Positions 4,309 to 36,507 of a stretch of 64,000 bases of DNA are shown piece after piece. Under the pieces are notes generated by a model. The model was not told the origin of the DNA and made no database searches. It saw only the letters and a list, made by a program, of their open reading frames with translations. Source of the stretch: Escherichia coli (GTDB taxonomy: Bacteria > Pseudomonadota > Gammaproteobacteria > Enterobacterales > Enterobacteriaceae); NCBI RefSeq assembly GCF_024298765.1, contig NZ_CP101210.1; one strand, 5' to 3'. Made by a program: the position numbers and the translations under genes. Numbering within the stretch: the first letter of the stretch is position 1; every line of letters begins with the position of its first letter.

Positions 4309-5193
4309 TCAGAACAGACGATCCCACAGTGTGACCAGCAAGTGGATAATGCGGTCCCGGGCCTTACGCAGAAGCTGTAACATCCAGGCCGGAAAGCTGA
4401 ATTGGGCAACGGCAGCGTCAAAGCTTTTCCCGATGGCGTCACCAAAAGTTTGTTGTGCGTGTTTCCGGGCCTGTTCAGAGCGGTTTTCCCCCCGGATATG
4501 TGAATAAACTGCGCTGGTTGCCTGTGGTGGCAGTGCGTGGATCATCAGCGACACCAGTGCCGGAAGATTCCAGCCGACAGGTGCGGCAACGGAGAGTACC
4601 GGAAATGATGACGGGAACAGGGGTGCCACCCGGGCTGTTACTGTCGCCAGTGAGAGTTCCTGCTGACGGGACGGGCATTTTTCTGTGTCGTTCCATTCTT
4701 CAGCAGGAAACACGCGATCGGCATGGCTGAGAACAAACAGAAAACGCGAGGGATCTGCACCTTCATTCAGTAAAAACTGATGCATGGCAATATCAGCAGC
4801 ATACGCACGTTCATCAGCCCGCAGGATCCAGATAATCAGATCCAGTTCCGGCAGTAACTGACGGTAAAGCTCCCGGTATTCCTGATCATGCTGCGGTGTC
4901 TCACCAATGCCGGGCATATCGACCAGCGTCATTCTGCGTTCACCGAGCTGCAGGGTAAGACGATGAGCCTGGCGGGTGCAGCCGTTCAGGGGATGCGTGG
5001 CGCAGATACGGGACTGAAAAATGGCATTACACAGACTGCTTTTGCCGGTGCCGGATTTACCCATAATGCCAATTACGGGCTCGTAATGAATAACACCGTG
5101 GAGATGTTCAAGGATTTTCTGGCGAATTTCTTCAGGAAGAAACGTCAGATATGATTTTACTTGTGCAGAGAGGGAAGAATGGCTGAATGACAT
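4309..5193 (-). CDS. GTP-binding protein, YfjP/YeeP/YkfA family
   Basis: 294 aa; P-loop GKSGTGKSSLCN; DxxG-like MPGIGE. Confidence 0.65.
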   Translation of the reverse strand: MSFSHSSLSAQVKSYLTFLPEEIRQKILEHLHGVIHYEPVIGIMGKSGTGKSSLCNAIFQSRICATHPLNGCTRQAHRLTLQLGERRMTLVDMPGIGETPQHDQEYRELYRQLLPELDLIIWILRADERAYAADIAMHQFLLNEGADPSRFLFVLSHADRVFPAEEWNDTEKCPSRQQELSLATVTARVAPLFPSSFPVLSVAAPVGWNLPALVSLMIHALPPQATSAVYSHIRGENRSEQARKHAQQTFGDAIGKSFDAAVAQFSFPAWMLQLLRKARDRIIHLLVTLWDRLF

Positions 5194-5377: not shown

Positions 5378-6508
5378 ATGACCGGACGTAAAAACAAATG
5401 TGTCAGAAAAAATTGTAACAATCAGGTTTTCTCAGTAAAAATGGCAGTGGAGAAAAGACTGTGCAGAAAACATTATGAGAGGTTTTGTGAGCTCAAAAAA
5501 AGAAGAGAGCAAAATCCTGTTCACAGATTAAATGAAGCATTGCCAAGAAAGATAAAAGGACCAAAAAGTAAGAAAAAATTAGTAAAAGAAAGAGAAATCA
5601 TTAACAGCAGAAAAAAACATAAACAGGAGCAGGGACCATCGCTGACTGAACTTAATAAAAAAGTTCGTGAGATACTGAAAACTCCTGCATGGAGAACGCT
5701 GGAAACGAGAATTCGAAGAAACGGAATCACATTTAACTCAAAAGCAGAGTTAGATGCGCTTTCTGAACTTTATGCAATTTATTCATGGGTTTCATATTGC
5801 AAACGGGGCGATAATTATTCTGTGTGGTTTTTGAATTGTCCGGATGTAAATATAAACCTTCATGTGTGCGAATGCCGGTCTTCTGAAAGCGATTGTTATC
5901 TGCCATCTCGTTTTATTATTCTTCCAGCTCCATTAAGGCAAAAAGTAAAAAGAAAATACTCGGCTAATTCGTCTGGGGTACCAGGACATAATGATTCAAA
6001 AAGTCTTTATAAGACAGTTTTGTCTGTTTGTGGTGGGAAAAGAGAAACCGAAATGTTCTTTTATTCATTGCCAGTAAAGACTAATCATCATCCTTACTGG
6101 ATTAAAAGTGGTGTGGTTAAAAGATTCCCTCCTGTTTTTGGTTTGTTGTTTTATGAACAGGAAAGATTAACAGGAGGTGTTTTTCGTTATGTGTTGATAA
6201 GATTTTATAATACTTTTAAAGAGAATTTGTTTTTTGTTGAGATTGTATCGTGCTGTTTTCTTGTTGAGCTTTTTCATGATATTGATTCATTTTTTATAAA
6301 TCAACGATTAAGTAAGCTGGAAAGTTTTATAGATAAGTGGAGGGAGGGTAAAGAAATCTGGATAAAAGTATATTTACAACTGATACATACTATATTGGGA
6401 ATAACTGAAACAGAAAAACTCGTCAATCTATATAATTCATTTTTTACTGATAAAGTGGTTCTCTGGGATGAATCAGTAAAAAAAGTTAAGTGGATTTATG
6501 AGAAATAG
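5378..6508 (+). CDS. hypothetical protein, AT-rich, Cys/His-rich N-terminus
   Basis: 376-aa ORF with GAGAGG RBS; N-terminal C-x5-C...C-x3-H-x4-C then lysine-rich stretch; no family recognised. Confidence 0.4.
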   Translation: MTGRKNKCVRKNCNNQVFSVKMAVEKRLCRKHYERFCELKKRREQNPVHRLNEALPRKIKGPKSKKKLVKEREIINSRKKHKQEQGPSLTELNKKVREILKTPAWRTLETRIRRNGITFNSKAELDALSELYAIYSWVSYCKRGDNYSVWFLNCPDVNINLHVCECRSSESDCYLPSRFIILPAPLRQKVKRKYSANSSGVPGHNDSKSLYKTVLSVCGGKRETEMFFYSLPVKTNHHPYWIKSGVVKRFPPVFGLLFYEQERLTGGVFRYVLIRFYNTFKENLFFVEIVSCCFLVELFHDIDSFFINQRLSKLESFIDKWREGKEIWIKVYLQLIHTILGITETEKLVNLYNSFFTDKVVLWDESVKKVKWIYEK

Positions 6509-8013
6509 TACCATTTAACTGAAAGCCACCATAACGTCTTTTTGACTACATTTATGATAATGCGTCTCATTTTGTTTTCGTTTTTTTGTTCAGGGAAATT
6601 TTCCGAACATCAGTGATAATGAGGGTTTTGTTGTTTTTGTTTCTGCAATGTTTGAGGACTGTTCCTGGAGACGATTCGTTGCTTGTGAGCAAGAGGTGGT
6701 CCGCTTTACTGGACAAGTTTTGCATTTGTTGAGTGGTGAAATGGAAGTAAAAAGAGCCCCTTTCTGGCAATGGTTGAAAAAGTCAGTAGCGTGTGACAGT
6801 AAAAGCTAACATAAAGTGATTATCGTATGATTATGACAATGACTTATAACTTTTATGAAAAGAACAACAGAAACTACGAAGCCATAGCAGATTCCTGAGA
6901 CCATGTTTTCTGAGGTAGAGAAAATAATTCCAGAGTAAATCTGTTCTGTTTTTAGGACAGAAAACTCCATGCTGGCTGTAAAAGTGAAAAATTAACACCC
7001 AGTATGTATGGAAGTCTGAAGATGTTGAGAATGTCGGTATGATACTATATACACATATTTTACTAAGTATTTTTACTAAGCATTTCAGTAAGTGTTATAC
7101 ACGTATTTTCATAAACACTTCTACAATTGTTTTCGTTAAGCATTGCTATACACATCCAGTTTAGTAAATCTTTACGTTAACTAAATCAGTTTAATGCTGC
7201 TGTAAAACCTTTCTGCTTCAGCAATCAATCTGCTATTCGATTTTACTGATGTTACGTTTAACCTTTCCTGAGATTTCGAGTTTCGACGTTAGCATGAGAA
7301 AAGTATCTTTACGCTAAATCAACCCGAACTTTCCTGAAGTAATCTGACGTTCTTTTCGATGTGCTTACAACGATTCTGTTAAATGACTTTCTGGATGTTT
7401 TGATAACAATCAGATTTAGGCATTAACGATTCCTGACGTTTTTCTTTTCCGTGTAAGGTCATTGTTTTCGTCATGAGGTTTCTTCTTGCATTGCGAAAGT
7501 GTGATGAACGGTTTTGGTGTTTTGATTCAGATGAAGTTTACGTTATCGATGGTTAATCGTTTTTATGGTGCGTAGTGAAACGTAACGCTTTCAGGAAGGG
7601 AAAATCGATTCTGATGGGGATGATCGTGTAACGGCGTTATCTGTAAACAGGTTTTAAACATGTCATTCGCATCCGTGATTGAGTTGTGTGATTAAGCTGT
7701 AGGTTTTGGGGTTGTTGTTGATTTGCATTACCAGGAAGCGTTCTGGTTGCGTTTCTGGTGTTTTGTTTGAATGTTCTGTGGATCCTTTTCCCTTCTGACT
7801 TTTCTCGTTGTCTATGTCGTTTTTAAATCCATTCGCTGTTCTTGAGTGTTTTTACCCTGTGTGTAGAATTATCTTTTCGTTCCGGGATGGTTTGTTCCGT
7901 TTCAATCACTCTTAATCAGAAAGTTGTAGCATTGCTCAATGCCGGATGCCGTAAAGTTTTACCGCGGTGATTAATGATGTGAAGTCAATCCAAATCAACG
8001 GAGATCTCTCATC

Positions 8014-8745
8014 ATGAATCAACCAATACACAATGCTTACTGGTTATCCCGTTTTGACAGCCTTCTCGACAGTGCCCTGGCGCAGCACCGTGCCGTCTCG
8101 TTAATCCGGGTGGATTTACGTTTCCCTGAGTATATGCCTGTCACCATCATGGATCCCGATCCGGATTCAGCGGTGATTTCTCGTTTTTTTGCATCCCTGA
8201 AAGCCAAAATTCAGGCTTACCAGCGGAAAAAAAGATGTGCCAATCAGCGTGTGCATGCAACCAGCCTGGGTTATTTCTGGTGCCGGGAGTTCGGCAAGAT
8301 GTATGGCAGGAAACATTATCACGTGATATTACTGCTCAACAAAGATACCTGGTGCTCGCTCGGGGATTTCAGCGAACCGTCTTCGCTGGCGACGATGATC
8401 CAGGAGGCATGGTGCAGCGCCCTGCATCTTGAGCCCTGGCAGGGTAATGGACTGGTTCATTTTTCCAGGCGGACGCCTTTCCGTAAACCGACATCATCTG
8501 ATGCTCGCCCTTCTTCCGATGATACGCCTTTGTCGGGTGGATGTTCTGAAACCAGGAAGGTTTCAGACAAAAAGTCTGGTGAAGCCGCTGTTCTCTGGAT
8601 CAAGCGTGGTGATGTGGAAGCGATGCAGAAAGCCCGGAACAGAGCCAGTTATCTCGTGAAAAATGAAACGAAGTTGCATGATGGTTCAGGTCAACGTAAT
8701 TATGGTTGCAGTCGTGGGCCGGGGCGTCTACTGGATGGCAGGTGA
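8014..8745 (+). CDS. YagK/YfjJ family protein (inovirus Gp2-like)
   Basis: 243 aa; YHVILLLNKD core; preceded by ~1.5 kb AT-rich leader; IS1 lies about 350 bp downstream. Confidence 0.55.
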   Translation: MNQPIHNAYWLSRFDSLLDSALAQHRAVSLIRVDLRFPEYMPVTIMDPDPDSAVISRFFASLKAKIQAYQRKKRCANQRVHATSLGYFWCREFGKMYGRKHYHVILLLNKDTWCSLGDFSEPSSLATMIQEAWCSALHLEPWQGNGLVHFSRRTPFRKPTSSDARPSSDDTPLSGGCSETRKVSDKKSGEAAVLWIKRGDVEAMQKARNRASYLVKNETKLHDGSGQRNYGCSRGPGRLLDGR

Positions 8746-10645: not shown

Positions 10646-12625
10646 ATGAACTTACAAGACAAAGAACAAAGCGCCAAACTCTCCAGTGCTATTTGGCGTA
10701 TGGCAGATGATTTATGGGGTGATTTCAAACACACCGATTTTGCGCGGATTATCCTGCCATTTTTGCTACTGCGTCGTATTGAATGCGTGTTAGAACCCAC
10801 CCGTGAGGAAGTTCGTAAGTTCTATCTGGCCGAAAAACAATCCGGCATAGACCTTGGTTTAGTGTTGCCAGAAATTGCGGGATTCGCCTTTTACAACACC
10901 AGTGAATATAGCCTAGAAACCTTAGGCGCGTCAGACACCGGCGACAACCTAGAACACTACATCAGCCAGTTCAGCAAAAACGTTCGTACCATCTTTGATG
11001 AGTTTAAATTTGGTCAAACCATAGAAGATCTGGAAAAAGCCAAGTTGCTGTATCGCATGGTAAACCATTTTGCCAACCTCGACTTGCATCCTGATGTAGT
11101 GTCTGACCGCGTATTATCAGATGCTTATGAAGAGCTGATTCTAAAGTTCGCCAGTTCGGTTAATGAAAAGGCCGGGGAATTTATGACCCCGCGTGATGCC
11201 GTGCGTCTTGCCACCAAACTGGTGCTGGCGGCGGATGAAGATATCTTTAGTGAAAAGGGTGTGATCCGCACCATCTATGACCCAACCTGTGGCACGGGCG
11301 GTTTCCTTTCCGATGCCATTAGCCAAATTGAAGAAATGGGCAGCAGCGCTAAAGTCGTGCCTTTTGGTCAAGAGCTCGACCCCGCGACCCATGCCATGGC
11401 GCTGACCAATATGATGATCCGCGGTTTTGATGCCAATAACATCAAGCAAGGCAACACCTTATCAGACGATCAGTTACGTGCCGACAAGTTTCACTACGGC
11501 CTTGCCAACCCGCCATTTGGCATTAAGTGGGAAAAAGCCAAGAAAGAAGTAGAACGTGAGCACAAACAGCTCAAATACGCCGGACGCTTTGGGCCAGGCC
11601 TGCCGAGTATTTCTGATGGTTCAATGCTGTTTTTACTGCACTTGGTATCAAAAATGGAAACGCCGGAAAATGGTGGTGGCCGAGTGGGTATAGTCCTTTC
11701 TGGCTCGCCACTGTTTAATGGCGATGCAGGCTCAGGCCCATCAGAAATCCGCCGTTGGCTGCTAGAACAAGACTTAGTCGAAGCGATTGTTGCCCTGCCA
11801 ACCGATATGTTCTTCAACACCGGCATTGGCACCTACATCTGGATTTTGACTAACCATAAAGAGCCAAGACGCAAGAATCAGGTGCAACTGATTAACTTGG
11901 CAGATATTTGGACTCCCATGCGTAAATCGCAAGGCGATAAGCGCAAGTACCTGAGTGATGAACAGATTGACGATATTGTCCGTGCGTACGATGGCTTTGA
12001 AGCCAGTGACAACTGTAAGATCTTCCAGACTACTGATTTTGCCTACCGTAAAGTCACCATTCAGCGTCCACTGCGTGCCAAACTAGATATTACCGCTGCG
12101 GGCATTGCTGCATTTGTGCAGCAAGATACGTTTAAAAAACTCAAACCAGAGCAACAAGCGGCATGGGTACAATACCTCACCGATAACCTTGGCCTTCAGC
12201 CTTATGAATGGGCACGTTTGGCGGTTAAGAAGAATAACAATAAGGGTGACTTTGGTAAGTGCTCAAAAGCACTGGCTACGGCCTTAACTGCGCACTTTGT
12301 AAAAATTGATCCGCAATTTGAGCCTGCACTGGATGAAAAAGGCCAAGTGATCGCCGACCCTAAACTCAAAGACACCGAAAGCATTCCTTTTGACCGCGAC
12401 GTTGAAGATTACTTCGCACAAGAGGTGCTGCCACATGTACCGGATGCCTTTATTGATCACTCAGTGCGTGATGAAAAAGACGGCGAAGTGGGCATTGTCG
12501 GTTATGAAATTAACTTTAACCGCTATTTCTACCAATACGTGCCACCACGCGAGTTGAGTGTGATTGATCGTGAGCTAAAAGCATGTGAAGCGCGCATTCA
12601 GGCTCTGCTGAATGAGGTGGCGTAA
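10646..12625 (+). CDS. hsdM: Type I restriction-modification methyltransferase subunit HsdM
   Basis: 659 aa; motifs FMTPR, DPTCGTGGFL (SAM binding), NPPFG (catalytic); stop overlaps hsdS start (TAATG). Confidence 0.9.
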   Translation: MNLQDKEQSAKLSSAIWRMADDLWGDFKHTDFARIILPFLLLRRIECVLEPTREEVRKFYLAEKQSGIDLGLVLPEIAGFAFYNTSEYSLETLGASDTGDNLEHYISQFSKNVRTIFDEFKFGQTIEDLEKAKLLYRMVNHFANLDLHPDVVSDRVLSDAYEELILKFASSVNEKAGEFMTPRDAVRLATKLVLAADEDIFSEKGVIRTIYDPTCGTGGFLSDAISQIEEMGSSAKVVPFGQELDPATHAMALTNMMIRGFDANNIKQGNTLSDDQLRADKFHYGLANPPFGIKWEKAKKEVEREHKQLKYAGRFGPGLPSISDGSMLFLLHLVSKMETPENGGGRVGIVLSGSPLFNGDAGSGPSEIRRWLLEQDLVEAIVALPTDMFFNTGIGTYIWILTNHKEPRRKNQVQLINLADIWTPMRKSQGDKRKYLSDEQIDDIVRAYDGFEASDNCKIFQTTDFAYRKVTIQRPLRAKLDITAAGIAAFVQQDTFKKLKPEQQAAWVQYLTDNLGLQPYEWARLAVKKNNNKGDFGKCSKALATALTAHFVKIDPQFEPALDEKGQVIADPKLKDTESIPFDRDVEDYFAQEVLPHVPDAFIDHSVRDEKDGEVGIVGYEINFNRYFYQYVPPRELSVIDRELKACEARIQALLNEVA

Positions 12626-13911
12626 TGAATGCTGGCAACATAGTAGATGCTTTCGTATCTGACTCGAAATGGAACTCAGTACCAGCTAAACGTTTATTTA
12701 CGAGTAGCAAAGAAATCAATCAAGGAATGAAAGAATCTAATCGTCTTGCACTAACAATGAAAGGTGTCATAAACCGCTCGTTAGACGATTTACAAGGACT
12801 TCAATCTTCTGATTACTCTGTTTATCAGATTTTTGAAAAAGATGACTTAGTTTTTAAGCTCATAGATCTTGAAAATATAAAGACTAGCCGAGTGGGGATT
12901 GTGCATGAACGAGGAATAATGAGCCCTGCATACATCCGTGTTTCAGCGAGTTCAAATAGCATCTACCCAAGGTTCTATTACTGGTACTTTTTTGCTCTAT
13001 ACCTAACCAATATTTATAACAAACTGGGTGGAGGAGTTCGTCAGAACCTAACAGCTGGTGATCTTTTAGAAATACCTGTTCCACTGATTGATATTTCATT
13101 ACAGAAGCAGGTTAGCACATTCCTTGATCGCGAAACCCAGCGCATCGACAGTCTGATCGAGGAAAAGCAGACCTTTATTAAGCTGCTCAAAGAAAAACGC
13201 CAAGCACTGATCAGCCATGTGGTCACAAAGGGGCTCTATCCCAATGTGGAGATGCAGGACTCTGGCATCGAGTGGATTGGGCAAGTGCCGAAGCATTGGG
13301 AAGTCAAAAAGATAAAGCATATTTGCTCCAACTTTATGTATGGAACCTCTCAAGACTGTAACCAGTCTGATGTTGGCTATCCTGTTCTCAGGATACCAAA
13401 CATCAAGAGTACCAATGTTGATTTTGAAGATCTCAAATATGCAAATATCAGTGATGTTGATGCTTTAACTTATCTTTTATCAAGAGGCGACATTTTAGTC
13501 ATCAGAACTAACGGTAACCCTAATCTGGTCGGCCAAAGCGCGCTTTTTGATTCAAATGGGCAGTATTTATTTGCGTCGTACCTAATAAAGTTAACACCAA
13601 AGCAAGGAGTGGATACTAGCTTCTTAGTGGAAGCGATGAACTCACTATCTGTTCGTCAAGCATTAACATTTCAGTCAAGAACATCGGTAGGTAACTACAA
13701 CCTGAGCATTCCTTCACTAGCTAATACAAGTATTGCTATCCCACCAATTGATGAGCAAAAGACAATAACGAATTACTTGAGTGCAGCAACGATAAACATT
13801 GATTTACTGATTCAAGAGACTGATAAATCGATTGATCTTCTAAAAGAACACCGCACATCGCTGATCAACGCGGCTGTCACAGGAAAAATAGACGTCAGGG
13901 AGGCGGTGTAA
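12625..13911 (+). CDS. hsdS: Type I restriction-modification specificity subunit HsdS
   Basis: 428 aa; two variable target-recognition regions separated by conserved central (ETQRIDSLIEEKQTFIKLLKEKRQALI) and C-terminal repeats; TAATG overlaps on both sides. Confidence 0.85.
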   Translation: MNAGNIVDAFVSDSKWNSVPAKRLFTSSKEINQGMKESNRLALTMKGVINRSLDDLQGLQSSDYSVYQIFEKDDLVFKLIDLENIKTSRVGIVHERGIMSPAYIRVSASSNSIYPRFYYWYFFALYLTNIYNKLGGGVRQNLTAGDLLEIPVPLIDISLQKQVSTFLDRETQRIDSLIEEKQTFIKLLKEKRQALISHVVTKGLYPNVEMQDSGIEWIGQVPKHWEVKKIKHICSNFMYGTSQDCNQSDVGYPVLRIPNIKSTNVDFEDLKYANISDVDALTYLLSRGDILVIRTNGNPNLVGQSALFDSNGQYLFASYLIKLTPKQGVDTSFLVEAMNSLSVRQALTFQSRTSVGNYNLSIPSLANTSIAIPPIDEQKTITNYLSAATINIDLLIQETDKSIDLLKEHRTSLINAAVTGKIDVREAV

Positions 13912-16900
13912 TGGCTGCACATCATGAAGTGCATTTTGAACAATATATTACCGAGCAGTTGGTGAACAATGGCTGGAAAGAAGGCCATTCCTGCCACTAT
14001 GACCAGCAACGCGCCCTTTACCCGCAAGATGTCATGGATTGGGTAAAGGCCACCCAGCCAGATGCCTGGCACAAACTGAATAAACTGCATGGTGTGAATG
14101 CCGAGCAGGTGCTGTTGGAGCGTTTGGAAAAAGCCCTCTCTTCCCACAAAGCTGGCAGTAAAACAGGTGGCACCATTAATGTGCTGCGTAAAGGCTTTAC
14201 CATTGCAGGTTGCGGCACGATTGCCATGGGCCAACGCAAACCCGAAGATGCGCGCAATGAAGAGCGTATAGCCCGTTATGAGCACAACATTTTGCGCGTG
14301 GTGCGCCAACTGAAATATTGCCCGACTCGCGAGTGGGAAATTGACTTGGTGTTCTTTATCAACGGTCTACCCGTTGCCACCGCCGAGCTAAAAACCGATT
14401 TTACCCAGTCGCTAGAATCGGCGATTGCGCAGTACAAAGAGGATCGTCTGCCCGTTGACCCAAAAACCAAGCGTAAAGAGCCGCTGTTAACCTTTAAACG
14501 CGGTGCAGTGGTACATTTTGCCATGTCTGATACAGAAATCGCCATGGCGACCAAACTGGCGGGAGAAAATACCTATTTTCTGCCCTTCAATAAAGGCCAT
14601 GATGGTTCTACCTCTGATTTGCCCGTACACATCAACTTGCCGGGTGAAGATGGAGAGTATCCGGTCAGCTATTTTTGGCAAGAAATTGCCCAAAAAGATA
14701 ATTGGCTACGCATTTTCTACAGCTTTGTGTATGTCGAAACCAAAGAGGTTGCCGATAGCAATGGCAAGGTTGAGCGTAAGGAAACACAGATTTTTCCGCG
14801 TTATCATCAGTTAGCCGCAGTCAACAAGATGATTGATGATGCCCGCCAGAACGGCGCAGGCATGCAGTATCTTTGTGAGCACAGCGCCGGTTCGGGAAAA
14901 ACCTCTACCATAGCCTGGACGGCCCATGATTTGATTCGTTTACGCAGCACCGATGGTAAAGCGGTCTTTAAATCAGTGATCATTGTGACCGACCGCACCG
15001 TGCTGGATTCGCAGTTGCAAGATGCGGTGCAACAGCTGGATCATCAATATGGGGTGATTAAGGCGATTGATCGCGAAAAGAGCAGCGAGTCGAAATCAAA
15101 ACAGCTGACTGAAGCGCTATTGACTGGCACGCCGATCATTGTAGTGACGATTCAAACCTTCCCATATGCGTTAGAAGCGATTCTGACCAATCAATCTTTG
15201 GCACAAAGTAACTTTGCGGTGATCATCGATGAAGCACACACCTCGCAAACAGGCTCTACAGCCAAAGGGTTACGCGCAGCGCTTACTCTAAACCTTAGCC
15301 CTCAAGAGTTGGAGCAAATGAGCATTGAGGACATTCTTACTAAGGTGCAAGAAGCGCGCGCCATGCCCAAGAACGTTTCGCACTTTGCTTTTACGGCAAC
15401 ACCCAAGCACAGCACCAAGATGTTGTTTGGCCGCCCGAAAGACCCTAACCAACCAGTGTCAGATGACAATCTTCCTGAATCGTTCCACCTCTACACCCAA
15501 CGTCAGGCCATTGATGAGGGTTTTATTCTTGATGTGCTGGAGAATTACACCCACTACGATACAGCCTACAAAATTGGTGAGAACAATCTGGATGAGAAGC
15601 GCGTAGACAGCAAACAAGCTCGCCGCGCGTTGGCGCGCTGGATGTCACTGCACCCAACCACGGTCAGCCAAAAAGTCGAATTTATTATTAAGCACTTCAA
15701 GGCCAATATCGCTCACCTACTGGAAGGTGAAGCCAAAGCCATGGTGGTCACATCGGGCAGGCCACAGGCGGTGAAATACAAGCTTGCTTTTGATAAATAC
15801 ATTAAAAAGCATGGTATTGAAGGTATCCAAGCCTTGGTTGCCTTCTCGGGCAAAGTCCCCGGCAAAGATTTGGGTGATGAAGACAGCCAAGACCCGCTAG
15901 AAATTGATTTCGATAAAGAGTACACCGAGTACAACTTAAACCCAGACACGCACGGGGCTGACCTGCGCCATGAGTTTGAGAAAACCGAATATCGCGTCAT
16001 GTTAGTCGCCAACAAGTTCCAAACGGGCTTTAATCAACCAAAACTGGTTGCCATGTATTTGGATAAGAAAATATCCGATGTAGAAGCGGTGCAAACGCTG
16101 TCTCGCCTAAACCGCACCTATCCAGGCAAAGACACAACCTTCGTGATTGATTTTGTTAACGATCCACAAACCATTCTCAATGCGTTCAAAAAGTACGACA
16201 AAGGCGCGCAGCTTAATGAAGTGCAAGATGTGAACGTCATCTATGACATCAAAGATATTTTGGATGAACAGAACATATACAACCATCAAGATTTAGAGTT
16301 GTTTAAGCAAGCGCGTGGTAAATCGATTCTCGGCCAATCACCTGACAAAAAGCCACACGCGCACAAGAAACTGCTAGCTGCCACACAACGCCCTACCGAT
16401 GTGTTCAACGTTAAGCTCAAAGAGCTGGTTGATGCTGCAAACCATTGGGATCAGCAATACAACAAAGCGCACCTTGCGGGTGATGAAAAAGCGGCGAACT
16501 ACGCAGAATCTCAGCGCAGTGATTTCACCAAGCAGCGCGAAGCACTAATGCGTTTTAAGTCAGATTTAGCTCGATTTGTGAAGCACTATAGCTATATGGC
16601 GCAATTGATTGAGTTTGGTGATCCTGAACTGGAAAACTTTGCCGCGTTTGCTCATTTGCTATCACGTCGATTGAAAGGGGTAACACCAGAAAACATCGAT
16701 CTCAGTGCACTGGTACTAGAAAAATTCAAAATCAAATACGACAAAGAGCCGCTTCCAGAAGCGTTTAATCAGGTACTTGAACCTATCCGCCCCAACTATA
16801 ACGACCCTGCGGATCGTGAACAGGCATTTCTTGCCGATATCATTCGCCGCCTAAACGAACTGTTTGGCGATGTCGGCGACGAACCCGGTCGCCGAAACTT

Positions 16901-17147
16901 TGCCAACGGTACTATTACGCGTGTCACCCAAAATCCAATTGTGGTTGAGCAGATAGAAAAGCACGACAAGTCGATTGCCCTCAAAGGCGACTTGCCGCAA
17001 GCGGTGAAGCAAGCCGTTGTGCAGGCTCTGCTGAAAGAAGGTGATATAGCCCGAACGCTACTCAAAGACCCACAAGTTATGGCAAGTTATGTTGAGTTGA
17101 TTTTTGACATGATGAAGCAAGGTGCAGAACAGGCGGCGGTGAAATAA
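13911..17147 (+). CDS. hsdR: Type I restriction enzyme endonuclease/helicase subunit HsdR
   Basis: 1078 aa; Walker A GSGKTST and DEAH box (VIIDEAHTSQ); GGGAGG RBS; TAATG overlap with hsdS and with downstream gene. Confidence 0.9.
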   Translation: MAAHHEVHFEQYITEQLVNNGWKEGHSCHYDQQRALYPQDVMDWVKATQPDAWHKLNKLHGVNAEQVLLERLEKALSSHKAGSKTGGTINVLRKGFTIAGCGTIAMGQRKPEDARNEERIARYEHNILRVVRQLKYCPTREWEIDLVFFINGLPVATAELKTDFTQSLESAIAQYKEDRLPVDPKTKRKEPLLTFKRGAVVHFAMSDTEIAMATKLAGENTYFLPFNKGHDGSTSDLPVHINLPGEDGEYPVSYFWQEIAQKDNWLRIFYSFVYVETKEVADSNGKVERKETQIFPRYHQLAAVNKMIDDARQNGAGMQYLCEHSAGSGKTSTIAWTAHDLIRLRSTDGKAVFKSVIIVTDRTVLDSQLQDAVQQLDHQYGVIKAIDREKSSESKSKQLTEALLTGTPIIVVTIQTFPYALEAILTNQSLAQSNFAVIIDEAHTSQTGSTAKGLRAALTLNLSPQELEQMSIEDILTKVQEARAMPKNVSHFAFTATPKHSTKMLFGRPKDPNQPVSDDNLPESFHLYTQRQAIDEGFILDVLENYTHYDTAYKIGENNLDEKRVDSKQARRALARWMSLHPTTVSQKVEFIIKHFKANIAHLLEGEAKAMVVTSGRPQAVKYKLAFDKYIKKHGIEGIQALVAFSGKVPGKDLGDEDSQDPLEIDFDKEYTEYNLNPDTHGADLRHEFEKTEYRVMLVANKFQTGFNQPKLVAMYLDKKISDVEAVQTLSRLNRTYPGKDTTFVIDFVNDPQTILNAFKKYDKGAQLNEVQDVNVIYDIKDILDEQNIYNHQDLELFKQARGKSILGQSPDKKPHAHKKLLAATQRPTDVFNVKLKELVDAANHWDQQYNKAHLAGDEKAANYAESQRSDFTKQREALMRFKSDLARFVKHYSYMAQLIEFGDPELENFAAFAHLLSRRLKGVTPENIDLSALVLEKFKIKYDKEPLPEAFNQVLEPIRPNYNDPADREQAFLADIIRRLNELFGDVGDEPGRRNFANGTITRVTQNPIVVEQIEKHDKSIALKGDLPQAVKQAVVQALLKEGDIARTLLKDPQVMASYVELIFDMMKQGAEQAAVK

Positions 17148-19670: not shown

Positions 19671-20347
19671 CTATAAAGGATTATCCATCTTAAAATCGTC
19701 GATATCGCCTGTCATTTTGAATAGATTGGTGTCATTCCAACGGCACAGTTGTCTAACCCGCATTAGATTTGAGTTGGCTCTGCGGATTATTGAGAAAGCA
19801 TCTTCAACAGCAGTAATCACCGATTTTTCCCAATCTTGTGCTCGGGTAAAGGTGCTTTGTGAATAGCGATAATTGCCCTCACGGGGGAGGTAATGGCTGA
19901 TCACCTGGTATTTGTCAGAATTCTTTTTAGGTTTAAACTCGTTGTAAACCCAGAAAATTTCGAGTTTTTTGTTTCTTTGCCTTACACGACAACCAAAATG
20001 ACCTGGGTAGCCTTCAGAGTTTTTACCTCTATGTGCAACGTTGTTCAGCCAGAACAAGTCTGCAATTTTTTGTGCTATGTAGAAGTAGCGGAGCTGTTCT
20101 ATTTCGGTTGATTTATGGGTGTAGTGTAGATATTGCTCTGATATGGTTAAGGAAAAAGCATTGCGTCGTCTTGATTAACATTTGTGCTATTGACAATAAA
20201 GGTTTCCCAAATATTAATTTGTGTTTCTAGTCCTTTAAATGATTTTGAGAAGGCTTCTATGTACTCAGATTGCGGTTGATTTCCCCCATTTAGTGCTGCA
20301 CCAAATGTAGCTATCTATTGTTCTAAAAATGAATGATTTTTGGTCAT
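19671..20347 (-). pseudogene. disrupted gene of unknown function (at least three frame segments)
   Basis: 128-aa ORF has no in-frame ATG at its 5-prime end and is open upstream; two more open segments in other frames up to an ATG near 20347. Confidence 0.4.
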
Positions 20348-22986: not shown

Positions 22987-26237
<3,251 letters not shown>

Positions 26238-30282: not shown

Positions 30283-30670
30283 CCTGACGGCAGGTATCAC
30301 TTACCCGAAGAAGGTAAAGCCCTCAAGAGGCAGTAACTCAGCCAACCTCTCCTCCGGCCACTCCGGCAGACGCGTCAGGACGTCCGTCAGCCAAGCATGT
30401 GGCTCCAGACTGCGGTTCCCAGAAGGCTCATTATCTGTGCCGCGCGGTTCCCGGCCATCAGTGAACCAGCGAACAACCAGGCCTTTCGTCCCATAACGAC
30501 CAGACGGATAGCACGCTCGCAGATATTGTTGTGTGTGCCTTGAAATGCACGATCTTTCCGTCGGTGAAAGTCCGCCCCGGCTAACTCTCGCTCCGACTGG
30601 AAGGACAAGAAGCGGTCCAGGAGGTAACAAAAGGGCTGAATCTCTCCCTGAAACGACTTCTTCAGGAAGT
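30283..30670 (-). pseudogene. IS66-family tnpC 3-prime fragment, frameshifted
   Basis: C-terminal TnpC-like peptides (NNICERAIRLVVMGRKAWLFAGS; HAWLTDVLTRLPEWP) in two frames; GTAAGTGATACC-type IS66 terminus near 30283-30303. Confidence 0.55.
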
Positions 30671-31098
30671 CAACGGGTTATGCGGGCCGTAATGTGAGTG
30701 AACACTGAGCAGCCATCGAAATGCCGTCGAGGGTGCTGACACGCCACAATAACGGGGAAGGCCGACGATGACCGGGAAGAGAGTGAGAAAGGCATCGGTC
30801 ATACCCACCGGGGTTGTGGTGTCAGCATGCATAACAATTGATCGATCGTGCAACAAGAGAAGTCCATAACGATGTCTGTCCGGGTGACGGGCAACAACGC
30901 CTCGCGAGGGGGTGAATCGGTTGTTATGGATGGCAGATGGGGTGTAGTAGTGAAAATACTGAGTAATGTCAGAGGAGCGAAGGCCCCCTCTTGCAGTACC
31001 AGTGTAACATGCAGGAAGAGCCCGGGGATTGCCATCAGCCTCACAACCCCGCTCGAACCGGTTCAGAACCTACAGAAAACACTACAGGAGAAAGCAAA

Positions 31099-33409: not shown

Positions 33410-34823
33410 CTAGTGGTTAAAGTGGCAGCACTGATGACTTAAGCGATATTGTCTTTGTATACCAGATGAATATCTGCTCCTCGCTCATAGCAGACTTTTG
33501 CATAGGTTCTTTTCCTAAAATAGCATGACATTTGTTTCAAAATTAGCCTGTAAGTCAAGAAAATACTTGGAGAATAATAATCTAGGCATTGGTAGCAACG
33601 ATAAATATCTACATAACCGATATTATCGAGTTACTAAATTGATGTGTTCCGGTAGATGAACAAAATGGTAGATCCTTCTAGAAACAAATAGAGTGTGGAT
33701 GAGGTAACCTGACTCAGCCAATTTATTGAGTCCGTTGAGCATCTGATCGGTTAATCTCTGAGAAAGAGTTTTCAGACAGATTCATTTTCTAGAATTATTT
33801 TTACTCATCAAACAAGGATGATTTTAATTTAGGTTTATTACTATAATTATATTTATTCTTTATATATTCTTTATTCACTCCCTTTTTCATACAATCTCTA
33901 TTGTTATTTACTTCCTGTCTTCACTCACTCTCAATCTTTACACATTCCATTAGTATTACTCTTGTTATCGTATTCACTCCATCCCTCAATCATAACTACT
34001 GTAACTCATATGATGTTCAGGTAAGTTATTCTCTACTACGCTATTGTTGATATTCATCTATTCTCATCTTCAGTAAAACAGTAATTGATTCTAATTTATC
34101 CATTATGAACCGTATTTGCTTAACAATGATTGTTTATCTGAAGTGTTTTAACTATTCTGGTGAACATCAATTTCTCTGTCATTACTGATTAACTGAATGC
34201 TTACTCTTTAATAAGGTATCCATTATTCTGTAACGATTAGCCGAGCAGGGTAAATAACAGAATTAATAGAGTGAATTTCTGATTGTGTTTGTTCGTTCCT
34301 GATTATCTTGTATTTTAAACAAAATGAAAATTATCCATCCATGGTATGTTTCATTCTGGTACCGTGTACCCGTTAACGTTCATATCTTGAACATGAGTTG
34401 TTTTTAACAGATAAAATGAGTGCGTGTAAGTTTATTGGGTTACAGGTATCGTGTTGGCCTTGTACACGGTTTTTTAGAACCATTGAGAGCAAGTTTGTAA
34501 TTTATGATGGTGATTAGTCGTAATATGTTTCTTGAACTTCTGATCGTGGGTTTTTATCGCATATTTTGCAGTATTTCGTGATGTTTATTGATTCTGTATT
34601 TTATTCACTCCTCGTTTATCTCATCTCTTTAGCTAATACCATCAGATAATCCATTTATTTCTGCACAACGCTACGTGTCGTTAATAACCGACGTATCCAT
34701 TCTGTTACAGCATGCCTGATAAATACCGTCTGTAAGTTATTACCGTTTTAGATCTGATTATGAGCGAAAGCATTAATTCGTTTACAGCACTTAAAACGTC
34801 ATTAACTTTCAGGAGTCATCAGC

Positions 34824-35390
34824 ATGCCTAAATCTTACACACCAAACTGGTTTTTTACCGCTTTACTTGACAATCACATCAATCAGTTGGTCGCACGCTA
34901 TTCCCGCCTGCGGGCCTTACGCATGGATTTCTTCTACAGGAAAGATACGCCTGATTTCTTACAACCTGATCATCGCTGGCTTGAATTGCAGTTGCGTATG
35001 CTGCTGGAGCAGGTGGAACAATTTGAAAATATCGTTGGTTTCTTCTGGGTGATTGAATGGACGGCTGATCATGGTTTTCATGCGCATGCGGTTTTCTGGC
35101 TCGATCGTCAGAGGGTTAAAAAAATATATCCCTTTGCGGAGCGGATTACGGAATGCTGGCAGTCTATTACGCATAACAGCGGTTCGGCACACCGCTGTAC
35201 ATATCAGCCGCATTATACATACAACATCAACATTCCCGTGCGTCATAACGATCCCGGGAGCATCGATAATATTCGCGGTGTCCTGCATTATCTGGCGAAA
35301 GAAGAGCAAAAAGACGGACTGTGCGCATACGGTTGCAGTGAAGTTCCTGAACGACCTGCTGCAGGGCGTCCTCGTAAGCCTCACTTCTGA
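34824..35390 (+). CDS. YagK/YfjJ family protein (inovirus Gp2-like), paralogue
   Basis: 188 aa; GFHAHAVFWLD core; AGGAG RBS; preceded by 1.4 kb AT-rich leader. Confidence 0.5.
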   Translation: MPKSYTPNWFFTALLDNHINQLVARYSRLRALRMDFFYRKDTPDFLQPDHRWLELQLRMLLEQVEQFENIVGFFWVIEWTADHGFHAHAVFWLDRQRVKKIYPFAERITECWQSITHNSGSAHRCTYQPHYTYNINIPVRHNDPGSIDNIRGVLHYLAKEEQKDGLCAYGCSEVPERPAAGRPRKPHF

Positions 35391-35647
35391 AGCTTAAATC
35401 CTGAGCTTCCTGTCCTGGAAACATTCCGTCGGTAAAACCTTACCGCCTTGCTTAATGATGTGAACTGAAGTCAACGGAGATCATTCACTCTGAACCACAT
35501 CCGGTGTTCTGTCCCTTGTCGGTGACCTGATCTTCCCGTTCTGCCCCGGTTCTTCACTTATTCCATCAACCCCATCCGCAAACCATAACACGTCAGCTTA
35601 TTCACGGGCAGGACGCATTGTGGGCTGCGCATAACGGAGCATATCTT

Positions 35648-36208
35648 ATGAATGCTATCCCTTATTTCGACTATAGCCTGGCCCCCTTCTGGCCATCTTA
35701 TCAGAACAAAGTCATCGGCGTCCTTGAGCGTGCGCTGCGTGAGCAGTCCGGCTCACGGATACGGCGGATCCTGCTTCGTCTGCCGTGTGAATATGACAAT
35801 ACCTTCAACAGCAGAACGACCTGGTTTGGTATGGATTTTATCGAAACCGTCAGTGCGCTGATGAATGCAACACCCGGACGTGACCTTTGCTGGCTCCTGA
35901 CCCGTCATCCTGAAAAACCGGAATACCATGTGGTGCTGTGCGTCAGACAGGAGTATTTCGACGGCCCCGAACTGGATCGGTTGATTCTGGATGCCTGGAG
36001 TAACGTGCTGGGTTTCGCGTCACCAGGTGAAGCAAAGCCGTACCAGAAGCAGATCACCCGGGATGTGGTACTGGATCGCCGGTCACCGGACTGCGAAGCC
36101 CTGTTTAAGGACCTTATCTGGGCGTTCAGTGATTTCGCCCGCGATCGCCGTGGAGTGCGCGATCCGGAAGCCCGTTGCCTCGCCGGTAATCCCGGTTGGC
36201 AGTGCTGA
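35648..36208 (+). CDS. YagK/YfjJ family protein (inovirus Gp2-like), second paralogue
   Basis: Start placed at ATG 35648 (ACGGAG RBS); YHVVLCVRQEYFD core. Confidence 0.45.
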   Translation: MNAIPYFDYSLAPFWPSYQNKVIGVLERALREQSGSRIRRILLRLPCEYDNTFNSRTTWFGMDFIETVSALMNATPGRDLCWLLTRHPEKPEYHVVLCVRQEYFDGPELDRLILDAWSNVLGFASPGEAKPYQKQITRDVVLDRRSPDCEALFKDLIWAFSDFARDRRGVRDPEARCLAGNPGWQC

Positions 36209-36276: not shown

Positions 36277-36507
36277 ATGTTGACCACAATAAGCCACGAC
36301 AGCGTGTTGCTGCGTGCCGACGATCCCCTGATCGACATGAACTACATCACCAGTTTCACCGGCATGACCGATAAATGGTTTTACAGGCTGATCAGTGAAG
36401 GTCATTTCCCTAAACCCATCAAACTGGGGCGCAGCAGCCGCTGGTACAAAAGTGAAGTAGAGCAGTGGATGCAGCAGCGAATTGAGGAATCACGAGGAGC
36501 AGCATGA
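36277..36507 (+). CDS. alpA: AlpA-family phage/island transcriptional regulator
   Basis: Small HTH protein ...FTGMTDKWFYRLISEGHFPKPIKLGRSSRWYKSEVEQW; start chosen at internal ATG of the 103-aa ORF. Confidence 0.5.
   Translation: MLTTISHDSVLLRADDPLIDMNYITSFTGMTDKWFYRLISEGHFPKPIKLGRSSRWYKSEVEQWMQQRIEESRGAA

What the first reader, a model, noticed from the sequence alone, without database searches (positions are those of the whole stretch)
6510..8013. Long AT-rich non-coding leaders upstream of Gp2-like genes share a short conserved motif
About 1.5 kb (6510-8013) and 1.4 kb (33410-34823) of ORF-poor AT-rich DNA precede Gp2-like genes. A ~55-bp element TTACCGC..G.TTAATGATGTGAA...GTCAA...CGGAGATC occurs at 7957-8010 (directly before the start codon at 8014) and at 35443-35485 (upstream of the second Gp2-like gene at 35648). 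These look like regulatory or silenced leader regions, possibly containing small RNAs.
Basis: seen in the sequence. Interest (0 to 1): 0.45.

Follow-up and report, generated by a model that had tools for sequence, protein, structure and literature searches.

The report
Conserved leader before island nuclease genes
The shared ~55-base motif is real and is the local version of a widely conserved control element that sits directly in front of genes for a Rep-like DNA-nicking enzyme in bacterial genomic islands, whereas most of the long AT-rich DNA further upstream is fast-evolving non-coding spacer with one extra conserved repeat block.

Summary
Two AT-rich, ORF-free stretches precede Gp2-like genes, and their only shared piece is a ~55-nt motif (7951-8006 and 35432-35482), with none expected by chance.

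The genes encode stand-alone HUH/Tyr nucleases of the YagK/YfjJ family, with a Rep/NS1-like predicted fold. The window carries three: an active-looking 243-aa gene, a 188-aa gene, and a degenerate one at 35648.

The motif is the most conserved part of the region, diverging 1-3% against ~7% at the gene's synonymous sites. It is the E. coli form of an element found before Gp2 homologues in many Gamma- and Betaproteobacteria. That element has a W-run/TACA box, an imperfect hairpin capped by a TATG box about 30 nt before the start codon (which always opens a mini-ORF), and a 3' arm over the Shine-Dalgarno.

I read it most plausibly as a promoter-proximal leader that limits translation of the nuclease. 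A nick or binding hairpin for the nuclease itself is the serious rival, and a strand test did not separate RNA from DNA.

The ~1-kb upstream modules are not pseudogenes, Rfam RNAs or structured RNAs. They diverge faster than synonymous sites and tolerate a gene insertion. Module 1 holds one conserved repeat block (TATACACRT x3-7, resembling a DnaA box).

The parts
6510..6920 (.). AT-rich spacer specific to this island variant, next to the 376-aa hypothetical gene. It is not part of the conserved module.
   Evidence: Blast matches in diverged islands begin at query position 412, which is window 6921. Alignment left of 6921 is lost when the neighbouring cargo differs.
6921..8013 (+). Conserved non-coding module 1 (1.09 kb) that travels with the 243-aa Gp2 gene. 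It has a sharp left edge.
   Evidence: Found in 1879 of 5426 complete E. coli genomes, down to 72% identity, mostly with no annotated feature. Indel lengths are not multiples of 3 and the sequences form mosaic haplotypes.
7048..7200 (+). Distal conserved block with direct repeats of TATACACRT at 7048, 7096 and 7147. Related islands hold up to 6-7 copies. The repeats resemble a DnaA box.
   Evidence: Four matches in 64 kb against 0.65 expected, three of them here on one strand and 48-51 nt apart. Copy number varies, and L006 has six DnaA-box-like hits in 213 nt, including a perfect TTATACACA. The block diverges 0.077, against 0.14-0.18 for its flanks.
7535..7858 (.). Dispensable middle segment. 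In L007-type islands it is replaced by 1186 nt carrying a minus-strand 176-aa ORF. It contains a terminator-like hairpin at 7734-7756 followed by a T-run.
   Evidence: Local blastn of the window against L007. Annotation of L007. Terminator-like site.
7929..8013 (+). Its parts are a TAAAGT/T-run/TTAC box (7952-7962), a variable 7-8 nt stretch, TTAATGATGTGAA (7970-7983) holding the mini-ORF ATG ATG TGA (7974-7982), GTCAA, and the SD GGAG (8000-8003). In the predicted fold ATGATG (7974-7979) pairs with CATCAT (8010-8015) and TCC (7989-7991) pairs with GGA (8000-8002).
   Evidence: Sequence. Divergence of 0.028 for 7941-8013 against 0.058 at 4-fold sites of the gene. Fold of -13.4 kcal/mol. Homologous elements in other genera.
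8014..8745 (+). Gp2#1, a 243-aa YagK/YfjJ ('inovirus Gp2') HUH-Tyr nuclease.
33795..34823 (+). Conserved non-coding module 2 (1.03 kb), upstream of the 188-aa Gp2#2. It is unrelated in sequence to module 1. ATTCACTCC occurs three times (33873, 33972, 34603).
   Evidence: Found in 1575 of 5426 genomes, down to about 80% identity, unannotated. Repeats. The proximal 150 nt diverge 0.04-0.08, against 0.10-0.16 at the gene's 4-fold sites and 0.1-0.4 distally.
34730..34831 (+). Leader of Gp2#2 with the same architecture as copy 1. It has a 21-nt imperfect inverted repeat (34730-34750 / 34792-34812) and TTACCG at 34740. TTATGAG in the loop opens a 23-codon uORF (34760-34831) that overlaps the start codon. 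The SD CAGGAG abuts the 3' arm.
   Evidence: Inverted repeat I1, 81% complementary. Sequence. Conservation.
34824..35390 (+). Gp2#2, a 188-aa YagK/YfjJ-domain protein with HAH and YLAK motifs.
   Evidence: Translation, annotation and alignment.
35414..35486 (+). Motif copy 2, the conserved head of the leader of the Gp2#3-alpA unit. It runs CCTGGAAAC..GGTAAAACCTTACCGC..TTAATGATGTGAA..GTCAACGGAGATCATTC. Its GGAG (35476-35479) is not followed by a start codon.
   Evidence: The block is nearly invariant in five diverged islands, while the following ~160 nt diverge strongly. The homology boundary in islands with a different upstream gene lies at 35405.
35648..36208 (+). Gp2#3, a degenerate Gp2 paralogue with EYH in place of HYH and no Tyr motif. 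An AlpA-family HTH gene follows at 36277-36507.
   Evidence: hhalign against the family alignment gives probability 77%, E 2e-5. No Pfam domain. Annotation.

Best explanation
The shared motif is the promoter-proximal leader of paralogous genes for a stand-alone HUH/Tyr (Rep-like) nuclease. It is the E. coli form of an element that precedes this gene family in many proteobacteria.

The element has three parts. First comes an A/T run ending in TACA or TTAC. Next is an imperfect stem-loop whose apex carries a TATG box about 30 nt before the start codon. Last is a 3' arm that covers the Shine-Dalgarno sequence.

Proposed mechanism (inferred, not shown). The mRNA starts at or near the TACA/TTAC box, so the short 5' UTR is essentially the hairpin. 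The hairpin occludes the ribosome-binding site and keeps synthesis of the nuclease very low. Occasional initiation at the exposed apical AUG opens a mini-ORF of 2-23 codons. In some loci that mini-ORF ends on or near the main start codon, and in others it runs in frame into the main ORF. Its translation, or binding of a trans-factor to the conserved loop, would melt the 3' arm and permit translation.

Copy 2 is the same leader head placed in front of the degenerate paralogue-alpA unit, which suggests that the nuclease gene and the AlpA regulator are controlled alike.

The ~1 kb of AT-rich DNA further upstream is not a leader. It is largely unconstrained intergenic spacer, plausibly bound by H-NS, and contains one additional conserved block of direct repeats that is a probable protein-binding array.
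For: Shown:
- The motif occurs twice, against none expected by chance.
- It is the slowest-evolving part of the region: 0.014-0.028 divergence between deep haplotypes, against ~0.07 at 4-fold sites and up to 0.31 in neighbouring non-coding blocks. The same pattern holds for module 2 and for copy 2 against its downstream flank.
- Homologous or analogous elements precede Gp2 genes in other genera.
- TATG lies at -25 to -34 in 32 of 74 distinct 5' regions, against 32 of 351 control ORFs.
- That TATG sits at the apex of a helix of at least 5 bp in 20 of 32 cases, against 8.45 +/- 2.6 (maximum 14) when the flanks are shuffled.
- The 3' end of the helix falls at -3 to -10, over the SD.
- Stem sequences differ completely between clades but still pair, for example CTCCGGTG/CACCGGAG, TTACCTATG/CATAGGTAA and TCCTCCTATGA/TCATAGGAGGA.
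- Within one clade 87% of cells pair, against 32-52% when the partners are slid. Three pairs show compensatory changes.
- Mean folding z-score is -1.4 over 66 leaders.
- The TATG always opens a short ORF. In the window these are 7974-7982, a GTG ORF ending in TGA at 8015-8017 that overlaps the ATG, and 34760-34831 overlapping the start at 34824.
- The 5' box recurs in the Gp2-alpA spacer of other genera.

From established knowledge: RBS-occluding leaders, sometimes with coupled leader peptides, are the usual way transposase and Rep genes are throttled. Examples are IS200 tnpA, IncI/IncB repY-repZ and R1 tap-repA.
Against: - No transcription start is known. A simple sigma-70 consensus scan finds no promoter at the box in two other genera. 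In the window it finds only a non-conserved site at 7842-7869.
- The fraction of leaders with a paired SD (62%) is close to that of control genes (50%).
- Folding is not better on the sense strand than on its complement: mean -7.7 against -8.6 kcal/mol. RNA is therefore not favoured over a DNA hairpin or palindrome.
- Morganellaceae keep the boxes but have almost no stable hairpin.
- Copy 2 is strongly conserved although its GGAG is not followed by a start codon. RBS occlusion alone does not explain that.
- A conserved loop over variable stems is also the signature of an HUH nick site.
- The mini-ORF has no convincing SD of its own, and neither its length nor its sequence is conserved.
Confidence: 0.42

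Rival explanations
1. Origin or nick-site model. The hairpin with its conserved TATGA loop is the DNA site that the Gp2 HUH nuclease recognises and nicks, or binds to repress itself. The AT-rich module with direct repeats upstream is the rest of an origin. Together they would let the excised island, or the segment between two direct copies of the site, replicate or be mobilised by a rolling-circle mechanism.
For: - The protein has an HUH/Tyr Rep fold, and the catalytic motifs are kept in about 90-95% of homologues.
- The site lies directly upstream of the rep-like gene, as in many rolling-circle replicons (established knowledge).
- The loop is conserved while the stems vary.
- There is no sense-strand preference in folding.
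- Copy 2 is conserved without any adjacent start codon, and the two copies are direct repeats that flank Gp2#1 plus cargo.
- A same-strand cluster of TATACACRT repeats varies in copy number and resembles DnaA box TTATACACA.
- Upstream ORF-free gaps are long across the family, with a median of 432 nt.
- E. coli Nissle isolates from mouse gut showed copy-number gain of an integrase and a Gp2 gene (bioRxiv 10.1101/364505).
Against: - The hairpin always overlaps the SD at a fixed distance from the start codon. An origin has no need for that.
- Every paralogue has its own version, including the catalytically dead one, and alpA has a related leader. There would then be several 'origins' per island.
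- Repeats are not found upstream of homologues in other genera.
- Self-similarity within the modules does not exceed shuffled controls.
- DnaA-like 9-mers with one mismatch are common in the window: 75 found, 64 expected.
- The middle of the module is replaceable, and most of it evolves faster than synonymous sites.
Confidence: 0.28
2. Descent-only model. The two motif copies are similar only because the genes are old tandem duplicates whose ordinary RBS and promoter regions were kept or homogenised by gene conversion. The long AT-rich regions are neutral, H-NS-coated horizontally acquired spacer with no specific function.
For: - Most of the modules diverge faster than synonymous sites and carry many indels.
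- Haplotypes are mosaic, so recombination is frequent.
- Insertions of IS elements and of a gene are tolerated.
- The regions are AT-rich.
- No RNA structure was found.
Against: - The leader copies are 75% identical, while the proteins they precede are only about 17-22% identical.
- The motif blocks evolve more slowly than synonymous sites.
- The TATG-apex architecture recurs in distant genera whose stem sequences are unrelated.
Confidence: 0.15
3. Operator model. The inverted repeat is a double-stranded DNA operator for a dimeric island regulator (AlpA-family, WYL-HTH or another) that sits over the promoter and early transcribed region of both the Gp2 and alpA units.
For: - Folding is equally good on both strands.
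- The same 5' box occurs in front of Gp2 and alpA units.
- HTH regulators are encoded in the island.
Against: - The arms vary and often contain bulges, and their spacing differs (loop and arm lengths vary by more than 10 nt), while the centre is conserved. Typical operators show the opposite pattern.
Confidence: 0.1
4. The long regions encode small RNAs, or one long structured non-coding RNA, or are decayed protein-coding genes.
For: - The regions are large, conserved and unannotated.
- The sense strand is T-rich.
- There is a terminator-like hairpin at 7734-7756.
Against: - No Rfam hit at gathering threshold or at E<=1, apart from one chance-level match.
- An alifold scan shows weak energies, with z-scores near or above 0 across 7200-7730.
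- The middle of the region is replaceable.
- No tblastn similarity to any ORF from 77 related loci.
- No meaningful NCBIfam or PHROG hit for the small ORFs; the only match, at E 0.015, scores below its curated cut-off.
- Indel lengths are not multiples of three.
Confidence: 0.05

Closest known systems
IS200 tnpA 5' UTR stem-loop, which occludes the Shine-Dalgarno of an HUH-Y1 transposase gene (from my own knowledge of the literature)
   Same: A small HUH/Tyr nuclease gene is preceded by a short leader whose stem-loop covers the SD. An upstream hairpin with a T-run may insulate it from read-through. The result is very low expression.
   Different: There is no sequence similarity. The element here has a conserved apical TATG with a mini-ORF, and the gene sits in an integrase/AlpA island rather than an IS. 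No antisense RNA was seen. Function is untested.
Leader-peptide-coupled translation of plasmid rep genes (IncI/IncB repY-repZ, R1 tap-repA; from my own knowledge)
   Same: A short upstream ORF starts in an accessible position and ends at or near the rep start codon. A hairpin sequesters the rep RBS.
   Different: The mini-ORF here varies from 2 codons to an in-frame fusion, and it lacks a clear SD. No antisense RNA or pseudoknot was identified.
Double-strand origins of rolling-circle replicons and CRESS-DNA/parvovirus origins (hairpin with a conserved loop nicked by an HUH Rep, next to the rep gene)
   Different: The loop motif TATGA matches no nick sequence I know. The hairpin is locked to the SD and start codon. 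There are several versions per island. Cleavage is not demonstrated.
Filamentous-phage intergenic region upstream of gene II
   Same: A long non-coding region lies directly upstream of a gene annotated as 'inovirus Gp2'-like. In Ff phages this region carries the origins and the gene II leader, which is under translational repression.
   Different: There is no sequence similarity. The modules here show no conserved hairpin set. The phage collection holds no match apart from one short (~260 nt, 67% identity) hit within the Gp2 coding region. The islands have no other inovirus genes.
Iteron/DnaA-box type plasmid origins (pSC101-like: DnaA box, AT-rich DNA, iterons, then an inverted repeat at the rep promoter)
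   Same: A same-strand repeat cluster resembling TTATACACA and an AT-rich stretch lie upstream of a rep-like gene, and an inverted repeat sits at the gene's 5' end.
   Different: HUH Reps are not known to use this origin type. The repeats are restricted to the E. coli lineage and lie 0.9 kb from the gene. The similarity to DnaA boxes is not statistically distinctive.

Membership tests
RBS-occluding 5' leader (translational operator) | A stem-loop whose 3' arm includes the Shine-Dalgarno or start codon of the downstream gene. | tested here: met
   The window fold pairs TCC with GGA of the SD and ATGATG with CATCAT at the start. The 3' helix end falls at -3 to -10 in the hairpin-bearing homologues. 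However, the generic 'SD paired' measure (62%) is close to control genes (50%).
RBS-occluding 5' leader (translational operator) | The structure is conserved through compensatory change. | tested here: inconclusive
   Stems differ completely between clades yet still pair. In the Enterobacterales clade 87% of cells pair, three pairs show compensatory change, and the covariation score is 0.203 against 0.149, reached by 9 of 500 shuffles. RNAalifold on a family-wide MAFFT alignment gave no consensus. The covariance model found only its own seed sequences.
RBS-occluding 5' leader (translational operator) | The element acts as RNA, so the sense strand is the folding strand and the transcript includes both arms. 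| tested here: not met
   There is no sense-strand advantage in folding: -7.66 against -8.61 kcal/mol, n=73. The transcription start is unknown and cannot be tested here.
Rolling-circle double-strand origin / HUH nick site | A cognate HUH-Tyr nuclease is encoded next to the site. | tested here: met
   [not shown]
Rolling-circle double-strand origin / HUH nick site | A hairpin with a conserved loop sequence over variable stems. | tested here: met
   A TATG(A) box lies at the apex in 20 of 32 cases, against 8.45 for shuffled flanks. It is enriched 32/74 against 32/351.
Rolling-circle double-strand origin / HUH nick site | Site-specific cleavage and covalent attachment by the nuclease, and replication or mobilisation dependent on the site. 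| not testable with these tools
   This needs biochemistry or genetics.
Iteron/DnaA-box origin | A cluster of direct repeats and DnaA boxes significantly above background, conserved across the family. | tested here: inconclusive
   TATACACRT occurs three times in 108 nt (4 in the window against 0.65 expected), with 6-7 copies in L006/L010. However, no repeats were found in five other genera, self-similarity does not exceed shuffles, and 1-mismatch DnaA boxes number 75 against 64 expected.
Known RNA families (Rfam 15) | A match to a curated covariance model. | tested here: not met
   There was no hit in 6400-8100 at gathering threshold. At E<=1 the only hit was STnc550 at 18 bits against a 48-bit threshold.
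Pseudogene / decayed coding region | Residual protein similarity, or a codon-like substitution and indel pattern. | tested here: not met
   No ORF from 77 related loci gave a tblastn hit. The small ORFs gave no NCBIfam or PHROG match that passes a curated cut-off; the only match, at E 0.015, scores below its cut-off. Indels of 1, 2, 4, 5 and 11 nt occur.
H-NS-silenced xenogeneic DNA | AT-rich relative to the host, and bound by H-NS. | not testable with these tools
   AT-richness is met (GC 0.33-0.37 against about 0.51 for flanking genes). Binding needs ChIP data.
YagK/YfjJ ('inovirus Gp2') family, for the gene at 35648 | A Pfam PF11726 match and the HUH and Tyr motifs. | tested here: not met
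   There is no Pfam hit. It has EYH in place of HYH and no YxxK. Only remote profile similarity is seen (probability 77%, E 2e-5), so it is a degenerate relative rather than a functional member.

The most novel reading that the evidence does not exclude
The conserved hairpin (TATGA loop), together with the AT-rich module and its DnaA-box-like direct repeats, is the cis-acting origin and nick site of the Gp2 HUH nuclease. After AlpA-triggered excision the island would replicate by a rolling-circle mechanism. Alternatively, the segment between the two direct motif copies (Gp2#1 plus defence cargo) would be peeled off as a single-stranded circle. Either way, this very common class of integrase/AlpA/RadC/CbtA islands would gain an autonomous replication or cargo-shuffling mechanism that has not been described.
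Probability: 0.2. Interest if true: 0.75.

Novelty: new member of a known kind. Interest (0 to 1): 0.42.

Why it matters
Islands of this type are found in about a third of complete E. coli genomes. They carry anti-phage cargo next to the Gp2 genes: a TIR protein, restriction enzymes and, in this window, a type I R-M system. Related integrase/AlpA/RadC/Gp2 islands in Pseudomonas are defence-carrying elements moved by jumbo phages (bioRxiv 10.1101/2024.08.29.610337).

The Gp2-like HUH nuclease is a core gene of these elements, and no function is assigned to it. A precisely delimited, family-wide cis element at its 5' end gives a direct experimental handle. The element is either the switch that keeps a potentially genotoxic nickase silent or the site on which the nickase acts.

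The result also corrects the picture of 1.5-kb 'leaders'. Only about 85-150 nt next to each gene, plus one repeat block, look functional.

Tried and rejected
- Tandem or dispersed repeat structure of the whole modules. TRF and the repeat finder gave only short families, and Smith-Waterman self-scores did not exceed dinucleotide shuffles.
- A large structured RNA. The alifold window scan was weak and Rfam found nothing.
- Pseudogenes. No protein similarity was found.
- Homology between module 1 and module 2. Only the motif is shared.
- A family-wide covariance model. The MAFFT/RNAalifold consensus was empty, and model R1, built from nine Enterobacterales leaders, retrieved only its seeds.
- G-U strand asymmetry as evidence for RNA. 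I first thought single wobble pairs favoured the sense strand, but the systematic test showed no such bias.
- Reading the boxes TTTACA-N14-TATGAA as a sigma-70 promoter. The spacing is 11-15 nt and variable, and the consensus scans were negative. The predicted promoter at 7842-7869 lies in a fast-diverging block.
- E. coli K-12 yfjJ and yagK as experimentally tractable proxies. Their leaders are short and too diverged to map the motif.
- Plasmid or phage origin of the module. It is rare on plasmids (17 records) and, apart from one short hit within the Gp2 coding region, absent from phages.
- Defence-system models for Gp2, the 376-aa neighbour and the L007 insert. There were no PADLOC hits.
- A literature search found no functional study of YagK/YfjJ or of its upstream region.
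Full report

Around the finding the gene order is:
- a leftward core: CbtA/CbeA, RadC, antirestriction, DUF932 and a YfjP-like GTPase at 4309-5193(-);
- a 376-aa AT-rich hypothetical gene at 5378-6508(+);
- no annotated gene in 6510-8013;
- an 'inovirus Gp2 family' gene at 8014-8745(+).

In strains with the simpler layout (Ecol_517, TUM12355) the order continues with Gp2, a TIR-domain gene(-), 1.4-1.5 kb of non-coding DNA, a YagK/YfjJ 188-aa gene, a 186-aa hypothetical gene, and an AlpA HTH gene. In this window about 25 kb separates Gp2#1 from the second non-coding region. That stretch holds IS1, RelB/DinJ, a type I R-M system, RhuM, MobI, IS3, a group II intron, nanXY and IS5.

**Checking the observation.** It is correct.
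- The largest ORFs in the two stretches are 67 aa and 49 aa.
- GC is 0.33-0.37, and the sense strand is 38% T in both.
- The motif pattern matches only at 7959 and 35440, with zero expected.
- It is the only significant similarity between the two regions: 7951-8006 against 35432-35482, 75% over 56 nt, E 5e-6.
- Not all of each stretch is a unit. Blast against 5426 complete E. coli genomes shows a sharply bounded conserved module at 6921-8013 (1879 genomes, down to 72% identity). A second, unrelated module lies at about 33795-34823 (1575 genomes, down to about 80%). Both are almost always unannotated.

**What the neighbouring genes are.**
- Gp2#1 matches Pfam YagK_YfjJ_C (1e-35) and REP_ORF2-G2P (1e-5).
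- Alignments show RVDLRFP, KHYHVxLLLNKD and RAxYLAKxxTK, which correspond to the three Rep motifs including HUH and the catalytic Tyr. These are kept in about 95% and 90% of 76 homologous loci.
- Gp2#2 (34824-35390) has HAH and YLAK.
- The gene at 35648 is only a remote, probably inactive relative. It has EYH, no Tyr motif and no Pfam hit, and hhalign gives probability 77%, E 2e-5.

**The motif is the constrained part.**
- In an alignment of eight islands, 7941-8013 differs by 0.028 on average and by 0.014-0.027 between the deep haplotypes. The Gp2 gene differs by 0.058-0.084 at 4-fold sites, and neighbouring non-coding blocks by up to 0.31.
- Module 2 behaves the same way. Its proximal 150 nt diverge 0.04-0.08, the gene's 4-fold sites 0.10-0.16, and distal blocks 0.1-0.4.
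- Copy 2 (35414-35486) is nearly invariant in five diverged islands, while the 160 nt that follow are heavily diverged.
- In islands where the 243-aa Gp2 directly precedes the 186-aa gene, copy 2 is still there. The homology boundary is at 35405. Copy 2 therefore belongs to the leader of the Gp2#3-alpA unit.
- The real RBS of that gene (AACGGAGCATATCTTATG) resembles the 3' end of the motif.
- The two leader copies are 75% identical, although the proteins they precede share only about 17% identity.

**The motif is one instance of a family-wide architecture.** A protein-guided scan of one genome per species returned 77 loci from Enterobacterales, Morganellaceae, Vibrio, Shewanella, Aeromonas, Alcaligenaceae and others. 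The 100 nt before the start codons show three features.
1. An A/T run ending in TACA, TTAC or TAAC at about -50.
2. A TATG(A) box at -25 to -34, present in 32 of 74 distinct leaders against 32 of 351 control ORFs.
3. In most clades, an imperfect hairpin with the TATG at its apex and the SD in its 3' arm. This holds in 20 of 32 leaders, against 8.45 +/- 2.6 when the flanks are shuffled. The helix ends at -3 to -10.

Stem sequences are unrelated between clades but complementary within each leader. In the best-sampled clade 87% of cells pair, against 32-52% when slid, and three pairs show compensatory changes.

Gp2#2 in the window has the same plan. It has an inverted repeat at 34730-34750/34792-34812, TTATGAG in the loop, and the SD CAGGAG at the 3' foot.

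The TATG always opens a mini-ORF of 2-12 codons, or an ORF in frame with the main one. In the window these are:
- ATG ATG TGA at 7974-7982;
- a GTG ORF ending in TGA at 8015-8017, which overlaps the ATG;
- a 23-codon ORF at 34760-34831 that overlaps the start at 34824.

In other genera the gene after Gp2 is alpA. The Gp2-alpA spacer repeats the 5' box (for example GGTATTTTTTTACAG) in front of a different hairpin. In E. coli, copy 2 occupies that position.

**RNA or DNA?** This is not resolved.
- For an mRNA leader that occludes the RBS: the hairpin is locked to the SD and start codon across very distant taxa, and every paralogue has its own version.
- Against, or neutral:
  - Folding is no better on the sense strand than on its complement.
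  - The generic 'SD paired' score is close to control genes.
  - Morganellaceae keep the boxes without a stable stem.
  - Copy 2 is conserved without an adjacent start codon.
  - Simple promoter scans find nothing at the 5' box.
- A conserved loop on variable stems next to an HUH gene is also what a Rep nick site looks like.

I therefore give the translational-leader model 0.42 and the nick-site/origin model 0.28.

**The long AT-rich modules.**
- They are not decayed genes. There is no tblastn similarity to any ORF of the related loci and no meaningful family hit for their small ORFs; the only match, at E 0.015, scores below its curated cut-off. Indel lengths are not multiples of three.
- They match no Rfam family.
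- They show no convincing conserved secondary structure.
- Most blocks diverge two- to four-fold faster than synonymous sites of the adjacent gene.
- About a quarter of evenly sampled hits (10 of 40 rows) are of the L007 type. In these, 7535-7858 is replaced by 1186 nt carrying an opposite-strand 176-aa ORF. A continuous 1-kb transcribed leader is therefore unlikely.
- The replaced segment includes the terminator-like hairpin at 7734-7756 and part of the only sigma-70-like site (7842-7869).
- One distal block stands out. 7048-7200 diverges 0.077 and holds three same-strand copies of TATACACRT, 48-51 nt apart. Related islands hold up to 6-7 copies.
- These repeats resemble the DnaA box TTATACACA (my recollection of oriC R2). 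One-mismatch DnaA boxes are common in the window, so this is a lead and not a finding.
- Module 2 has three copies of ATTCACTCC.
- Upstream ORF-free gaps are long for the whole family (median 432 nt). Repeats were not seen in five other genera.
- The module is rare on plasmids and, apart from one short hit within the Gp2 coding region, absent from phages.

**Literature.** I found no functional study of YagK/YfjJ or of its upstream DNA. Gp2-like genes are listed as core genes of Pseudomonas integrase/AlpA/RadC defence islands transduced by jumbo phages. A copy-number gain of an integrase and a Gp2 gene was noted in E. coli Nissle from mouse gut.

**Verdict.** The motif is a genuine conserved cis element, undescribed as far as I could find, at the 5' end of Rep-like nuclease genes. 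It is a new member of the class of promoter-proximal control hairpins, with a real chance of being the nuclease's own target site. The 'long leaders' are mostly spacer, with one additional conserved repeat block of unknown role.

Noticed in passing
window 8746-33409: The slot between Gp2#1 and the second non-coding module is a cargo hotspot. Here it holds IS1, RelB/DinJ, a type I R-M system (10646-17147), RhuM, MobI(A/C) (19671-20057, -), IS3, a group II intron and nanXY. Other strains have a TIR-domain gene, a restriction endonuclease, an acyltransferase or YfjI at the same place.
   Followed up: partly
window 19671-20057 (-): A gene annotated as conjugative transfer protein MobI(A/C) lies next to RhuM and the type I R-M system. 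This suggests a fragment of an IncC-mobilisable island inserted in this island.
   Followed up: no
window 23460-25073 (-) and 30558-30697 (+): Rfam finds group II intron pieces: domain V/VI next to an ltrA-type reverse transcriptase ORF (23550-25073), and a separate D1-D4 fragment on the other strand 7 kb away. It also finds the IS3 ALIL frameshift pseudoknot (26073-26188) and IS10 RNA-OUT (61036-61105).
   Followed up: no
window 8014-8745, residues ~153-188: The E. coli 243-aa Gp2 carries a ~45-aa Ser/Pro/Thr-rich, low-confidence insertion between the HUH and Tyr motifs. The 189-195-aa homologues of other genera lack it. Among islands, divergence at codon positions 1+2 (0.046) is nearly as high as at 4-fold sites (0.058). 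Several database variants have frameshifted C-termini that lose the Tyr motif (P0034, P0046, P0073). Constraint on this copy therefore looks relaxed, unlike Gp2#2 (0.02 against 0.10-0.16).
   Followed up: partly
L012-L018, L021, L046: about 50-150 nt downstream of the Gp2 stop codon: In other genera the alpA leader has its own conserved hairpin, with a loop close to TTTGAGGA/CTGAAGGAG that contains an SD-like sequence about 90 nt before the real alpA RBS. In some loci a GC-rich stem precedes the T-run of the 5' box, so that box may double as the terminator tail of the Gp2 gene.
   Followed up: partly
window 5378-6508 (+): A 376-aa AT-rich (GC ~0.36) hypothetical protein sits between the GTPase gene and module 1. 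It has no NCBIfam, PHROG or PADLOC match. In other islands this slot holds different hypothetical genes.
   Followed up: partly
[not shown]
   Followed up: no
L088 4588-5096 (-); L002 9422+: Some related islands carry a ProQ/FinO-family gene (frameshifted) or an H-NS family gene as cargo. These are possible trans-factors for hairpin leaders or AT-rich DNA.
   Followed up: no
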